Shown: piece by piece, positions 45,601 through 51,600 of the stretch
How positions within the stretch are numbered: the stretch's first letter is position 1
How the letters are laid out: each line of letters opens with the position of its first letter
DNA from: Escherichia coli
Lineage (GTDB): Bacteria > Pseudomonadota > Gammaproteobacteria > Enterobacterales > Enterobacteriaceae
Assembly (NCBI RefSeq): GCF_016903815.1
Contig: NZ_CP069973.1
Length of the DNA stretch: 64,000 nucleotides
Strand: one strand, 5' to 3'
Program-made: the position numbers

Positions 45601-48600
45601 GAACGAGAAAAAGAAATTGTCAGACAGAAAAACGAGCAGCTCGATATTCAGGCAGGAGACTGGGTTAGTGGTGCCTCCCAGGGATTCAATAACTGGCTGG
45701 ATGACACTAAGGATATCAGTGAGCAGATAAAATCAACCACGACTCAGATGTTTGATGGAATGACCGATGCGCTGGGTGATTTTGTCACGACAGGCAAAGC
45801 AAATTTTCGTTCTTTCGCTACTTCCGTGATTTCGGATCTTAGTCGAATAGCATTAAAGGCTTCAATTACTGGGATTTTCGACAGCATTAGTAACAGTTCT
45901 TCTGGGGGGATTTTAGGAACTATCGGGAGTGCTATTAGTAAATTTATTCCGAATGCAAAGGGCGGTGTTTATGAGTCTCCGTCATTGAACACGTATTCGA
46001 ACGGTATTTATGATTCCCCGCAATTTTTTGCTTTTGCAAGAGGGGCTGGTGTTTTTGGTGAGGCTGGTCCGGAAGCCATTATGCCATTAACACGAACTTC
46101 CGATGGTTCTCTTGGTGTCAGAGCTATTAATAGTAAAAGTGGTAATGGAGGCGGAGATATTACCTATGCCCCTGTATACCAAATCACTATTCAAAATGAC
46201 GGCCAGAATGGAGAGATTGGCCCTCAGGCAATAAAAGCACTTATGGGGATGGTTGATCAGCGGGTGCAGGGCAATCTGTTAAATATGCGACGTGATGGGG
46301 GAATGTTAAGTGGCTAATACGGAAGAATTTCACTGGTTACCAGAGGATGGAATGAAAACAGAAAATAAACCATCGATAAAAACTGTAAGATTTGGCGATG
46401 GTTATGAGCAACGAAGTCCAAATGGACTTAATCATTCTCTGCGCGTTTTCACCTGTGATTTCAAAGTTGAGGCGAATGAACGTGATTCATTTGAAAAATT
46501 TTTAGCCCGGCATGAAGGCTATAAATCTTTTTTTTGGCGCCCGCCGGGTATTAACAGAAAAATCAGAGTGGTGTGTCGAACGTGGTCAGCGACAGAACAT
46601 ATCACCTATACCGATTTTTCGTGTCAGTTTGACGAAGTGGTGATCTGATGCAGGACATACAACAGGAAACGCTGAATGAATGCATTCGTGCGGAGCAGTC
46701 GGCCAGCGTGGTGCTCTGGGAAATCGACCTGACCGAGGTAGGCGGGGATCGCTACTTTTTCTGTAATGAGCAGAACGAAAAAGGTGAGTCTGTCACCTGG
46801 CAGAGTCGGCAGTATCAGGCCTATCCCATTCAGGGGAGTGGATTTGAGATGAACGGCAAGGGCAGTGCTGCCCGTCCGACACTGACGGTCTCTAACCTGC
46901 ACGGCATGATCACCGGGATGGCGGAAGATCTGCAGAGTCTGGTCGGCGGAACGGTGGTCCGGCGTAAGGTTTACGCCCGCTTTCTGGATGCGGTGAACTT
47001 CGTCAACGGAAACAGCGAAGCCGATCCGGAGCAGGAGGTGATCAGCCGCTGGCGCATCGAGCAGTGCAGCGAACTGAGCGCGGTCAGTGCCTCTTTTGTA
47101 CTGTCCACGCCGACTGAAACGGATGGCGCTGTTTTTCCGGGACGTATCATGCTGGCCAACACCTGCACCTGGACCTATCGCGGCGATGAGTGCGGTTATA
47201 GCGGTCCGGCGGTCGCGGATGAATATGACCAGCCGACGTCCGATATCACGAAGGATAAATGCAGCAAATGCCTGAGTGGCTGTAAGTTTCGCAATAATGT
47301 CGGCAACTTTGGCAGCTTCCTTTCCATTAACAAACTTTCGCAGTAAATCCCATGACAGAGACAGAATCAGCGATTCTGGCGCACGCCCGGCGATGTGCGC
47401 CAGCGGAGTCGTGCGGCTTCGTGGTGAGAACGCCGGAGGAGGAAAGATATTTTCCCTGCGTGAATATCTCCGGTGAGCCGGAGGAGTATTTCCGGATGTC
47501 GCCGGAGGACTGGCTGAGTGCAGAAATGCAGGGAGAGATTGTGGCGCTGGTCCACAGCCACCCCGGTGGTCTGCCCTGGCTGAGTGAGGCCGACCGGCGG
47601 CTGCAGGTACAGAGTGATTTGCCGTGGTGGCTGGTCTGCCGGGGGGCGATTCATAAATTCCGCTGTGTGCCGCATCTCACCGGGCGGCGCTTTGAGCACG
47701 GGGTAACGGACTGTTACACGCTGTTCCGGGACGCTTACCATCTGGCGGGAATTGAGATGCCGGATTTTCATCGCGGGGATGACTGGTGGCGTAACGGTCA
47801 GAATCTCTATCTGGATAATCTGGAGGCCACAGGGCTGTATCAGGTGCCGTTGTCAGCGGCGCAGCCGGGCGATGTGCTGCTGTGCTGTTTTGGTTCATCG
47901 GTGCCGAATCATGCCGCCATTTACTGTGGTGACAGCGAGCTGCTGCACCATATTCCTGAACAACTGAGCAAACGAGAGAGGTACACCGACAAATGGCAGC
48001 GACGCACACACTCCCTCTGGCGTCACCGGGCATGGCACGCATCTGCCTTTACGGGGATTTACAACGATTTGGCCGCCGCATCGACCTTCGAGTGAAAACG
48101 GGGGCCGAAGCCATCCGGGCGCTGGCCATGCAGATCCCGGCATTTCGTCAGAAACTGAGCGACGGCTGGTACCAGGTACGCATTGCCGGGCGTGATGCAG
48201 GTGAAACCGAATTGTCTGCCCGTCTTAATGAGCCGCTGGAAATGGTGCCGTGATCCATATCGTGCCGCGTCTGGCAGGAGCCAAAAGTGGCGGTGTGTTT
48301 CAGGCTGTGCTGGGGGCGGCTGTTATGGCGGTTGCTATATGGATGCCGGGGGTAGGAATTATGGCGAGTAATCTGCTGTTTTCTCTCGGTGCCAGTATGA
48401 CGCTTGGCGGTGTTGCACAGATGCTGGCCCCTAAACCCAGAACTCCCCGCACACAGACAACGGATAACGGCAAACAGAACACCTATTTTTCTTCACTGGA
48501 TAACATGGTTGCCCAGGGCAATGTTCTGCCGGTTCTGTACGGTGAAATGCGCGTGGGGTCACGCGTGGTTTCTCAGGAGATCAGCACGGCAGACGAAGGG

Positions 48601-51600
48601 GATGGTGGTCAGGTTGTGGTGATTGGTCGCTGATGCAAAATGTTTTATGTGAAACCGCCTCCGGGCGGTTTTATCGTTTATGGAGCATGACGAATGGGTA
48701 AAGGCAGCAGTAAGGGGCATACCCCGCGCGAAGCGAAGGACAACCTGAAGTCCACGCAGCTGCTGAGTGTGATCGATGCCATCAGCGAAGGGCCGGTTGA
48801 AGGTCCGGTGGATGGATTAAAAAGCGTGCTGCTGAACAGTACGCCGGTGCTGGACAGTGAGGGGAATACCAATATATCCGGCGTCACGGTGGTGTTCCGG
48901 GCCGGTGAGCAGGAGCAGACACCGCCGGAGGGATTTGAATCCTCCGGCTCCGAGACGGTGCTCGGTACAGAAGTGAAATATGACACGCCGATAACCCGGA
49001 CCATCACGTCGGCAAACATTGACCGTCTGCGTTTTACTTTCGGCGTGCAGGCACTGGTGGAAACCACCTCAAAGGGGGACAGGAATCCATCGGAAGTCCG
49101 CCTGCTGGTTCAGATACAACGTAACGGTGGCTGGGTGACGGAAAAAGACATCACCATTAAGGGTAAAACCACTTCACAGTATCTGGCCTCGGTTGTGGTG
49201 GATAACCTGCCGCCGCGCCCGTTTAATATCCGGATGCGCAGGATGACGCCGGACAGCACCACAGACCAGCTGCAGAACAAAACGCTCTGGTCGTCATACA
49301 CTGAAATCATCGATGTGAAACAGTGCTACCCGAACACGGCACTGGTCGGCGTGCAGGTGGACTCGGAACAGTTCGGCAGCCAGCAGGTGAGCCGTAATTA
49401 TCATCTTCGCGGGCGCATTCTGCAGGTGCCATCGAACTATAACCCGCAGACTCGGCAATACAGCGGTATCTGGGACGGAACGTTTAAGCCAGCATACAGC
49501 AATAACATGGCCTGGTGTCTGTGGGATATGCTGACCCATCCACGCTACGGCATGGGGAAACGTCTTGGTGCGGCGGATGTGGACAAATGGGCGCTGTATG
49601 TCATCGGCCAGTACTGCGACCAGTCAGTGCCGGACGGCTTTGGCGGCACGGAGCCGCGCATCACCTGTAATGCGTACCTGACCACACAGCGCAAGGCGTG
49701 GGATGTGCTCAGTGATTTCTGTTCGGCGATGCGCTGTATGCTGGTATGGAACGGGCAGACGCTGACGTTCGTGCAGGACCGACCGTCGGATAAGGTGTGG
49801 ACCTATAACCACAGTAATGTGGTGATGCCGGATGATGGCGCGCCGTTCCGCTACAGCTTCAGCGCCCTGAAGGACCGCCATAATGCCGTTGAGGTGAACT
49901 GGATTGACCCGGATAACGGCTGGGAGACGGCGACAGAGCTTGTTGAAGATACGCAGGCCATTCTCCGTTACGGTCGTAACGTCACGAAGATGGATGCCTT
50001 TGGCTGTACCAGCCGGGGGCAGGCGCACCGCGCCGGGCTGTGGCTGATTAAAACGGAACTGCTGGAAACGCAGACCGTGGACTTCAGCGTGGGTGCCGAA
50101 GGGCTTCGCCATGTACCGGGCGATGTCATTGAAATCTGTGATGATGACTATGCCGGTATCAGCACCGGTGGTCGCGTGCTGGCGGTGAACAGCCAGACCC
50201 GGACGCTGACGCTCGACCGTGAAATCACGCTGCCATCCTCCGGTACCACGCTGATAAGCCTGGTTGACGGAAGTGGTAATCCGGTCAGCGTGGAGGTTCA
50301 GTCCGTCACCGACGGACTTAAGGTGAAAGTGAACCGGGTTCCTGACGGCGTTGCAGAATACAGTGTGTGGGGGCTGAAGCTGCCGACGCTGCGCCAGCGC
50401 CTGTTCCGCTGTGTGAGTATCCGTGAGAACGATGACGGCACGTATGCCATCACTGCCGTGCAGCATGTACCGGAAAAAGAAGCCATCGTGGATAACGGGG
50501 CGCACTTTGACGGCGACCAGAGCGGCACGGTGAATGGTGTCACGCCGCCAGCGGTGCAGCACCTGACCGCCGAAGTCACCGCAGACAGCGGGGAATATCA
50601 GGTGCTGGCGCGCTGGGACACGCCGAAGGTGGTGAAGGGCGTGAGCTTCCTGCTTCGCCTGACCGTGGCAGCGGATGACGGCAGTGAGCGGCTGGTCAGC
50701 ACGGCCCGGACGACGGAAACCACATACCGCTTCACGCAACTGGCGCTGGGGCGGTACACGCTGACAGTCCGGGCGGTAAATGCGTGGGGACAGCAGGGCG
50801 ATCCGGCGTCGGTATCGTTCCGGATTGCCGCACCGGTAGCACCGTCGCGGATTGAGCTGACGCCGGGGTATTTTCAGATAACCGCCACGCCGCATCTTGC
50901 CGTTTATGACCCGACGGTACAGTTTGAGTTCTGGTTCTCGGAAAAGCGGATTACCGATATCAGGCAGGTTGAAACCACAGCCAGCTATCTTGGCACGGGG
51001 CTGTACTGGATAGCCGCCAGTATCAATATCAAACCGGGCCATGATTATTATTTTTACGTTCGCAGTGTGAACACCGTTGGCAAATCGGCATTCGTGGAGG
51101 CTGTTGGTCAGCCGAGTGATGATGCATCCGGCTATCTGGATTTTTTCAAAGGCGAGATAGGGAAAACCCATCTGGCTCAGGAGCTGTGGACGCAGATTGA
51201 TAACGGTCAGCTTGCGCCTGACCTGGCTGAAATCAGGACGTCCATTACGGATGTCAGCAATGAAATCACGCAGACCGTCAATAAGAAACTGGAAGACCAG
51301 AGTGCAGCGATCCAGCAGATACAGAAGGTTCAGGTTGATACAAATAATAACCTGAACAGCATGTGGGCAGTGAAGCTGCAGCAGATGCAGGACGGACGCC
51401 TTTATATTGCGGGTATCGGTGCCGGTATTGAGAACACCCCCGACGGCATGCAGAGTCAGGTGCTGCTGGCGGCGGACAGGATTGCGATGATTAATCCTGC
51501 GAATGGCAACACAAAGCCGATGTTTGTTGGTCAGGGCGATCAGATATTCATGAATGAAGTGTTCCTGAAATATCTGACGGCTCCCACCATTACCAGCGGC

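What the first reader, a model, noticed from the sequence alone, without database searches (positions are those of the whole stretch)
47993..48633. Lambda-like tail assembly protein I encoded as two overlapping ORFs
Protein similarity to remembered lambda I continues across the boundary, but the frame changes between …AGRDAGETELSARLNEPLEMVP-stop and IHIVPRLAGAKSGG… (GTGA overlap at 48250-48253). Either gene I is frameshifted, which would matter for tail assembly and thus for whether this prophage can make infective particles, or the two parts are expressed separately by coupling. With the ralR, pin and hok lesions this bears on whether the prophage is functional or decaying.
Basis: partly seen in the sequence, partly recalled or inferred. 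Interest (0 to 1): 0.4.

Follow-up and report, generated by a model that had tools for sequence, protein, structure and literature searches.

The report
Frameshifted prophage tail gene I
A lambda-type tail-tip gene (gene I) in an E. coli prophage is split into two reading frames by the loss of one A from a run of four; this is an ordinary, already annotated pseudogene lesion confined to one clonal group of strains.

Summary
ORF1 (47993-48253, 86 aa) and ORF2 (48250-48633, 127 aa) are the two halves of lambda tail tip protein I, in different frames, with a GTGA stop/start overlap. The cause is a one-base deletion in an A-run: GGAAATGG at 48240-48242 against GGAAAATGG in the plaque-forming phage PhiR49_1 and in about 1,650 E. 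coli genomes. The deleted allele is exact in only 43 of 5,426 complete genomes. RefSeq already marks it "tail assembly protein, frameshifted".

The break lies inside the N-terminal ubiquitin-like domain, before its last strand. There is no slippery site, and no phage or distant homologue shows a two-ORF arrangement. A decaying gene is therefore the best reading (about 0.9).

- **Chimeric prophage.** A Rac-type body at ttcA is joined to a Qin-type right end at ydfJ by a roughly 225-kb inversion, so it lacks a matching attR.
- **Twin copy.** In the near-identical strain 7/2, a twin prophage carries an intact I within a 6.27-kb stretch that differs only by this A.
- **Spread of the lesion.** At least one genome, and probably nine or more, has both copies frameshifted, which points to gene conversion.

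ORF2 still encodes every part of gpI seen in lambda virions, so residual function is not excluded.

The parts
47993..48253 (+). ORF1: 5' fragment of tail tip gene I. It encodes the ubiquitin-like domain without its last beta-strand, followed by 3 out-of-frame residues (MVP) and TGA.
   Evidence: PF06805 profile positions 2-64 of 83; gpI 1-82, 86.6% identity. The ATG at 47993 has a strong Shine-Dalgarno match, -9.3 kcal/mol.
48240..48242 (+). A3 run: site of the one-base deletion. The ancestral state is A4, GGAAAATGG.
   Evidence: Alignment with PhiR49_1 and strain 7/2. It is the only difference from the twin copy over 6.27 kb.
48250..48633 (+). ORF2: 3' fragment of gene I. It holds the last Ubl strand VIHIVP, AGAKSGG, two hydrophobic helices and the complete plug domain.
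   Evidence: (lambda gpI chains 8iyk and 9e7m). The GTG at 48250 has only a weak SD-like match, -4.8 kcal/mol.
48250..48253 (+). GTGA overlap of the ORF1 stop and the ORF2 start. It arises by chance from native codons GTG ATC (V-I) once the frame is shifted.
47352..48095 (+). Gene K (JAB plus NlpC/P60 peptidase). It overlaps the start of I by 103 nt. Rac-type sequence runs up to 47850.
48694..52173 (+). Gene J (central tail fibre), intact. Its protein WP_021523093.1 is identical in both twin prophages.
47851..54121 (.). Tail-tip module (3' end of K, I, J, lom, 5' part of stf). In strain 7/2 it is identical to the twin prophage's module except for the missing A. It is the substrate for inversion and gene conversion.
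   Evidence: the only difference is at 48239/40.
9509..9551 (.). Rac-type attL core at the ttcA/intR junction. Its partner is not in the window; in strain 7/2 it lies about 250 kb away in inverted orientation.
   Evidence: 43 bp, 93%, L006 26776-26734.

Best explanation
Gene I of this lambdoid prophage is a recent pseudogene. Replication slippage removed one A from an A4 run (now A3 at 48240-48242). The ribosome therefore leaves the I frame after residue 83 and stops three codons later.

The break lies inside the N-terminal ubiquitin-like (beta-grasp) domain, just before its last strand (VIHIVPR...SGG). The 86-aa product is thus an incomplete domain (inferred). The downstream 127 codons have no dedicated initiation signal (inferred).

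The lesion arose in situ in the Rac-type prophage of one clonal group, probably ST405 (inferred, not typed). It has been inherited clonally and is found in both orientations of a roughly 225-kb prophage-to-prophage inversion. In some genomes it has been copied into the twin Qin-type prophage by gene conversion. It is one step of prophage decay, not a designed two-gene arrangement.
For: 1. A one-base gap in the A-run is the only local difference from phage PhiR49_1, whose I is a single 213-aa ORF.
2. The exact A3 81-mer is in 43 records of 5,426 genomes and the A4 version in 267. All other related hits sampled span 82 bases, i.e. have the intact length.
3. With the same Rac-type K upstream, 40 records carry A3. 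At least 20 further records differ only by the extra A. The intact allele is therefore ancestral within the lineage.
4. PGAP marks the identical sequence as frameshifted.
5. No phage record carries A3.
6. All 21 aligned homologues are continuous, with G85, A86, I88, H89, P92 and R93 invariant across the junction. Homologues at 35-50% identity keep the ORF2-equivalent at about residues 75-195 of proteins of about 190-230 aa.
7. ORF1 covers only Pfam positions 2-64 of 83. The AF2 model places the last strand at residues 87-92, after the break (N-domain pLDDT 62-68).
8. Lambda gpI is a structural plug of the tail tip (PMC10721106, PMC11101478, PMC12617516).
9. No slippery heptamer lies in the 19-nt window where a -1 shift could rescue the frame (sequence).
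Against: ORF2 contains everything of gpI that is resolved in lambda virions (residue 101 onward, PMC11101478; 135-223, PMC10721106). It begins at a GTG overlapping the ORF1 stop, with a weak SD-like GGUG (-4.8 kcal/mol), so some ORF2 product by reinitiation is possible. The allele has persisted through a worldwide clonal expansion and has been copied to the second prophage; this is compatible with neutrality but does not prove loss of function. No expression or induction data exist here.
Confidence: 0.9

Rival explanations
1. The split gene still works. ORF2 is translated by termination-reinitiation at the GTGA overlap. It supplies the hydrophobic helices and the plug domain that end up in the tail tip, while the ubiquitin-like domain is dispensable or acts in trans as the ORF1 fragment.
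For: ORF2 holds all virion-resolved parts of gpI (PMC11101478, PMC10721106). The Ubl domain was predicted to be cleaved off by the JAB peptidase of gpK at its C-terminal glycine (PMC1779556). The stop and start overlap, with a weak SD. In T5 the equivalent plug is simply a domain of pb3, without a Ubl (PMC10721106).
Against: The break is not at the domain boundary: it removes the last beta-strand from ORF1 and leaves it on ORF2. No natural homologue is split or lacks the Ubl. The one apparent stand-alone C-half (P0200) is a mis-called start of a 183-aa ORF. The GTGA overlap is a by-product of native V-I codons. All plaque-forming relatives have one ORF.
Confidence: 0.07
2. Recoding: a programmed -1 ribosomal frameshift or transcriptional slippage at the A-run restores full-length I at a useful rate, as in lambda G/GT.
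For: The needed shift is -1, and only three copies of gpI are required per virion (PMC10721106).
Against: The rescue window (48232-48250, GCC GCU GGA AAU GGU GCC in the target frame) has no X XXY YYZ heptamer, and no codon allows tRNA re-pairing. A run of three A is too short for RNA polymerase slippage (sequence; general knowledge). The arrangement is not conserved: relatives simply have A4.
Confidence: 0.02
3. Sequencing or assembly artefact: the true sequence has A4.
For: It is a homopolymer-length difference. Two of the three other differences from strain WCHEC4533 over 47851-60000 are also 1-base indels.
Against: The same A3 allele is present in 43 independent complete assemblies from many laboratories, hosts and countries. 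In strain 7/2 the same assembly has A4 in the twin copy. A run of 3-4 bases is not error-prone.
Confidence: 0.01

Closest known systems
Bacteriophage lambda gene I (tail tip assembly / insertion protein gpI, UniProt TIPI_LAMBD; PDB 8IYK, 8IYL, 8K35, 8XCG, 9E7M)
   Same: K-I-J synteny, a 103-nt overlap of I with the end of K, and the same domain order: Ub-like domain, Gly-rich hydrophobic linker, plug domain. Identity to the two halves is 77-87%.
   Different: Here the reading frame is broken after residue 83 by a one-base deletion. The hydrophobic linker is 10 residues shorter than in lambda.
Intact orthologue in Escherichia phage PhiR49_1 (PV340568) and in E. coli prophages (WP_049286672.1)
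   Same: 99.4% DNA identity over the whole gene. In strain 7/2 the twin prophage copy is identical over 6.27 kb.
   Different: These have A4 and a single 213-aa ORF (PGAP aa from a later start).
stf frameshift of laboratory lambda (lambda PaPa versus Ur-lambda)
   Same: A single-base frameshift in a tail gene splits it into two ORFs and is carried stably in a lineage (PMC10721106, PMC12617516).
   Different: stf is dispensable for plaque formation. By established lambda genetics (general knowledge, not tested here), gene I is one of the genes needed for tail assembly.
Lambda G/GT programmed -1 frameshift
   Same: Two overlapping frames in a tail-assembly gene, related by a -1 shift.
   Different: G/GT has a conserved slippery heptamer and is conserved across tailed phages. 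The I split has no slippery site and occurs in only one clone.
Defective Rac and Qin prophages of E. coli K-12
   Same: The same integration sites and marker genes: ttcA-intR-ralR-recET-kilR-sieB-trkG on one side; pinQ-ydfK-'ydfJ on the other.
   Different: Here the Rac-type element is full length, with a complete head and tail gene set. It is recombined with the Qin-type element through their shared tail-tip module.

Membership tests
Lambda tail tip protein I family (Pfam PF06805 Lambda_tail_I; PHROG phrog_32) | Significant sequence match to the family profile | tested here: met
   ORF1 matches PF06805 at 7.5e-19. ORF1 and ORF2 match phrog_32 at 2.3e-21 and 4.2e-53.
Lambda tail tip protein I family (Pfam PF06805 Lambda_tail_I; PHROG phrog_32) | One continuous ORF of about 190-225 aa joining the Ub-like domain to the C-terminal plug domain | tested here: not met
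   The frame changes at 48239-48241, and ORF1 covers only profile positions 2-64 of 83. All homologues examined are continuous. The locus is therefore a pseudogene of this family, not a working member.
Lambda tail tip protein I family (Pfam PF06805 Lambda_tail_I; PHROG phrog_32) | Position between K (JAB plus NlpC/P60) and J in the tail-tip operon | tested here: met
   K lies at 47352-48095 with PF14464 and PF00877; J lies at 48694-52173.
Lambda tail tip protein I family (Pfam PF06805 Lambda_tail_I; PHROG phrog_32) | C-terminal region homologous to the plug seen in the lambda tail tip (gpI 135-223) | tested here: met
   For the restored protein, 9e7m chains give E 6.6e-47. ORF2 aligns with gpI 87-223.
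Programmed ribosomal frameshift genes (e.g. lambda G/GT) | Slippery heptamer in the overlap that allows tRNA re-pairing in the new frame | tested here: not met
   Inspection of 48229-48253 found none.
Programmed ribosomal frameshift genes (e.g. lambda G/GT) | Two-frame arrangement conserved among relatives | tested here: not met
   43 genomes carry A3; about 1,650 related genomes and all phage records have a single frame.
Homopolymer-slippage pseudogene in a prophage | Single-base indel in a homopolymer relative to intact, near-identical orthologues, restricted to one lineage | tested here: met
   A4 to A3. At least 20 genomes with the same K type carry A4. The twin copy in strain 7/2 differs only at this base.
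Homopolymer-slippage pseudogene in a prophage | Loss of function of the product | not testable with these tools
   This needs induction or complementation experiments.

The most novel reading that the evidence does not exclude
The frameshifted allele is not dead. ORF2 contains every part of gpI that is resolved in lambda virions. It would be made by reinitiation at the GUGA overlap and would still build a working tail-tip plug. That would show experimentally that the ubiquitin-like domain of tail protein I, long predicted to be removed by the JAB peptidase of gpK, is dispensable or can act as a separate piece. It would also explain why the allele persisted worldwide and was copied into the twin prophage.
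Probability: 0.07. Interest if true: 0.5.

Novelty: already known. Interest (0 to 1): 0.12.

Why it matters
Taken alone, this is a routine prophage pseudogene that RefSeq already flags, so it matters little. It does give one dated step in the decay of a full-length Rac-type prophage in a clinically important clone.

The context is a tidy natural example of two co-resident prophages sharing a 6.3-kb identical tail-tip module. That module mediates a roughly 225-kb chromosomal inversion and gene conversion, which can either spread or repair a lesion.

The A3 allele is also a ready-made natural mutant. It separates the ubiquitin-like domain of tail protein I from the virion-resident part. It could therefore be used to test the 2006 prediction that gpK's JAB domain processes gpI.

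Tried and rejected
- **Programmed -1 frameshift or transcriptional slippage.** Rejected: there is no slippery heptamer in 48232-48250 and the A-run has only three bases.
- **Natural two-ORF or Ubl-less versions of I.**
  - The 120 nearest homologues are all single ORFs or fusions.
  - Among 150 representatives found with ORF2, the short ones were checked. P0200 is a mis-called start of a 183-aa ORF with the Ubl, and P0239 is cut by a contig end.
- **The frameshift as a by-product of the Rac/Qin crossover.** Rejected: the same A3 allele sits behind the Rac-type K in both the un-inverted (EE72d) and inverted (7/2, PEC1020) arrangements.
- **WCHEC4533 as the parental Rac copy.** That strain has no Rac-type prophage at all; its ttcA is intact.
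- **A second lesion in the side tail fibre.** PGAP gives a 'partial' call in 7/2, but the window has one intact 799-aa ORF at 52905-55304, identical to PEC1020 where it is annotated whole.
- **AlphaFold model of restored I.** Overall confidence is low (mean pLDDT 49). Only the secondary-structure order of the N-terminal domain (pLDDT 62-68) was used, and no fold search was attempted.
- **Sequence type of the clone.** It was not determined. It is only suggested by strain names ('405'), an O102:H6 relative, and the inclusion of WCHEC4533 in an ST405 comparison.
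Full report
**1. The observation**

The window holds two forward ORFs: 47993..48253 (86 aa) and 48250..48633 (127 aa). The GTG start of the second overlaps the TGA stop of the first at 48250-48253.

Both are halves of lambda tail tip protein I:
- ORF1 residues 1-82 align with lambda gpI 1-82 (86.6% identity, E 3e-52).
- ORF2 residues 1-127 align with gpI 87-223 (77.4%, E 1e-71).
- By tblastn the frame switches between 48238 and 48241.
- Pfam PF06805 and PHROG phrog_32 agree: ORF1 covers phrog_32 profile positions 2-78 and ORF2 covers 85-202.

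The neighbours are as in lambda. K (JAB plus NlpC/P60, 47352-48095) overlaps the start of I by 103 nt, and J follows at 48694.

**2. The cause**

The best phage match is Escherichia phage PhiR49_1 (99.4% identity, host ECOR13). It covers the 641-base query with 642 bases and encodes one 213-aa I protein.

The alignment shows a single gap. The window has GGAAATGG (A3 at 48240-48242) where the phage has GGAAAATGG. With the extra A the protein reads ...LNEPLENGAVIHIVPRLAGAKSGG..., matching lambda's ...LHETLPDGAVIHIVPRVAGAKSGG....

The GTGA overlap is therefore not a designed coupling signal. It is the native codons GTG ATC (Val-Ile) read one base out of register.

**3. Distribution**

The window is base-for-base identical to E. 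coli strain 7/2 (NZ_CP023820.1) over its first 56,703 bases. There PGAP annotates the gene as 'tail assembly protein, frameshifted'.

| Query | Allele | Result |
|---|---|---|
| 81-mer centred on the site | A3 | exact in 43 records of 5,426 complete genomes |
| 82-mer | A4 | exact in 267 records |
| same queries, other related hits sampled down the ranking | intact length | span 82 bases, about 1,650 genomes |
| 81-mer against phage records | A3 | none |
| 601-base query (Rac-type K SNPs plus the A-run) | A3 | 40 records at 100% |
| same 601-base query | A4 | at least 20 records differing only by the extra A, including an O102:H6 strain |

The intact allele is therefore ancestral in the same prophage, and the deletion arose inside one lineage. 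The carriers come from humans, dogs, cattle, wild birds and water on several continents. This rules out a sequencing artefact.

The lineage is probably ST405. Two carriers are named 'strain 405', and the prophage-free relative WCHEC4533 belongs to a published ST405 comparison set.

**4. What the break does to the protein**

Published work describes gpI as three parts:
- an N-terminal ubiquitin-like beta-grasp domain ending in a conserved glycine;
- a glycine-rich hydrophobic linker;
- a small C-terminal domain.

The JAB domain of gpK was predicted to cut the ubiquitin-like domain off (PMC1779556).

Cryo-EM of lambda shows gpI as a structural trimer in the tail-tip lumen. Residues 135-223 form a tripod, or plug, that binds gpJ and the C-terminus of gpH (PMC10721106, PMC12617516). 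One study resolves gpI from residue 101 onward, with the N-terminal domain unseen (PMC11101478).

In the window the break falls after residue 83. ORF1 reaches only Pfam position 64 of 83. An AlphaFold model of the restored protein places strands at 15-19, 29-32, 60-64 and 87-92. Overall confidence is low, but the N-terminal domain has pLDDT 62-68. ORF1 therefore lacks the last strand of the beta-grasp fold. ORF2 begins with that strand (IHIVP), then carries AGAKSGG, the hydrophobic helices and the whole plug.

Residues around the junction (G85, A86, I88, H89, P92, R93) are invariant in 21 homologues.

**5. Could it still be expressed usefully?**

A -1 shift between the -1-frame stop (48229-31) and the ORF1 stop (48251-53) would restore the protein. 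That stretch (GAG CCG CUG GAA AUG GUG CCG) has no slippery heptamer, and no codon can re-pair in the -1 frame. Three As are too few for transcriptional slippage (general knowledge).

Reinitiation at the GTG is conceivable. There is a weak GGUG match to the anti-SD (-4.8 kcal/mol). For comparison, the true I start at 47993 scores -9.3.

Comparative data give no support for a split gene:
- The 120 closest homologues are single ORFs of 191-226 aa, or fusions.
- Representatives at 35-50% identity carry the ORF2-equivalent at about residues 75-195 of proteins of about 190-230 aa.
- The one apparent stand-alone C-half that could be examined is a mis-called start of a 183-aa ORF that includes the ubiquitin-like domain.

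I therefore rate the plain pseudogene reading at about 0.9 and a functional split at about 0.07.

**6. Context that changes the consequence**

The prophage in the window is a chimera.
- **Left part.** It is a full-length Rac-type element at ttcA: intR, xisR, ralR, recET, kilR, sieB, trkG and a complete head and tail set.
- **Right part.** From 47851 onward the sequence equals the right part of a Qin-type prophage: I, J, lom, stf, pinQ, ydfK, truncated ydfJ.
- **Evidence for the join.** Against strain WCHEC4533, window 47851-60000 shows only four differences, one of them the A deletion.
- **Reciprocal product.** In strain 7/2 it lies 224.8 kb away in inverted orientation: Qin-type body, intact I (WP_049286672.1), the same J and lom, then a DinI-like gene, sitABCD and uspF.
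- **The two tail-tip modules.** They are identical over window 47851-54121 (6.27 kb) except for the missing A.
- **att sites.** The Rac attL core (window 9509-9551) has its partner next to uspF in inverted orientation, and none in the window.

In this arrangement the element cannot be excised by its own integrase. In strain 7/2 an intact I could be supplied in trans, or could repair the lesion by recombination (inference).

**7. History of the allele**

- The A3 allele follows the Rac-type K in both arrangements. EE72d is un-inverted, with the sit/uspF side downstream. 7/2, PEC1020 and the window are inverted. The deletion is therefore not a scar of the crossover.
- WCHEC4533 shares the flanking IS1 insertion in dgcM and a frameshifted MFS gene with 7/2. 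It has no Rac-type prophage and an intact ttcA.
- For nine A3 genomes the I-only query and the K+I query have their best 100% place at different loci about 225 kb apart. This implies that both twin copies are A3.
- I verified this in WP7-S18-ESBL-09. Both the Qin-type K and the Rac-type K are followed by a 'frameshifted' I. A reciprocal exchange cannot produce this. Gene conversion between the twin modules is the simplest explanation (inference).
- Whether the window's own genome has an intact twin cannot be told from 64 kb.

**8. Verdict**

It is an ordinary, already annotated frameshift pseudogene of a known family, in a prophage that is decaying and is structurally locked in this chromosome arrangement. 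Novelty is 'already known' and interest is low.

The only unusual reading left open is that ORF2 retains function, because it encodes all of gpI that stays in the virion. That needs the induction and complementation experiments listed under next steps.

Noticed in passing
window 9509-9551 (attL) and 47851-58000; L006 (strain 7/2 1765001-1815000): The prophage is a Rac/Qin chimera. A Rac-type left end at ttcA is joined to a Qin-type right end (pinQ, ydfK, ynfT, truncated ydfJ). This implies a roughly 225-kb inversion between two prophages that share an identical 6.27-kb tail-tip module. Both orientations occur among near-identical genomes (EE72d against 7/2 and PEC1020).
   Followed up: yes
L012 and L013 (strain WP7-S18-ESBL-09); coordinates compared: At least one related genome, and probably nine or more, carries the same A3 frameshift in both twin prophages. 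This suggests that gene conversion spread the lesion from one tail-tip module to the other.
   Followed up: partly
window 57113-57119: pinQ (minus strand) is frameshifted by a C7 run. WCHEC4533 and PEC1020 have C6 and an intact pinQ. Strain 7/2 shares C7, so this is a later homopolymer lesion than the one in I.
   Followed up: partly
window 56702 and 57772: These are two of the window's differences from strain 7/2 seen up to about 59.3 kb; the last ~4.7 kb of the window was not compared with it. They are also absent from WCHEC4533 and PEC1020. One is a 1-base deletion (CAGGATA to CAGATA) inside the tail-fibre-assembly remnant; the other is a G/A SNP.
   Followed up: no
window 47993 versus 48092: PGAP and the phage annotation start gene I at GTG 48092, which has no SD (+0.4 kcal/mol). 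That start would delete the first strands of the ubiquitin-like domain. The lambda-type ATG at 47993 lies inside K, has a strong SD (-9.3 kcal/mol), and is the start that fits the Pfam domain.
   Followed up: partly
window 52905-55304: The side tail fibre gene is one intact 799-aa ORF with a long Ala/Ser/Thr/Lys-rich repeat region. RefSeq splits it into a 'partial' pseudogene plus a second CDS in 7/2 and WCHEC4533, but annotates the identical sequence as one gene in PEC1020. This is an annotation inconsistency, not a lesion.
   Followed up: yes
L011 (WCHEC4533 2668001-2708000) versus window 8623-9610: A strain of the same clone lacks the whole Rac-type prophage, including its sitABCD cargo end, and has an uninterrupted ttcA next to uspF. 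The cause is either precise excision or a lineage sampled before acquisition.
   Followed up: no
window 28852-30309: trkG (potassium transporter) sits between the lysis cassette and the ParB-like and terminase genes of a full-length Rac-type prophage. This is the same cargo position as in the deleted K-12 Rac.
   Followed up: no
window 1103-2558 and 3396-5405: There are chromosomal lesions left of the prophage. A DHA2 MFS efflux gene is annotated as frameshifted, and dgcM is truncated by an IS1 insertion. Both are shared with WCHEC4533.
   Followed up: no
I did not compare them with the K-12 versions.
   Followed up: no
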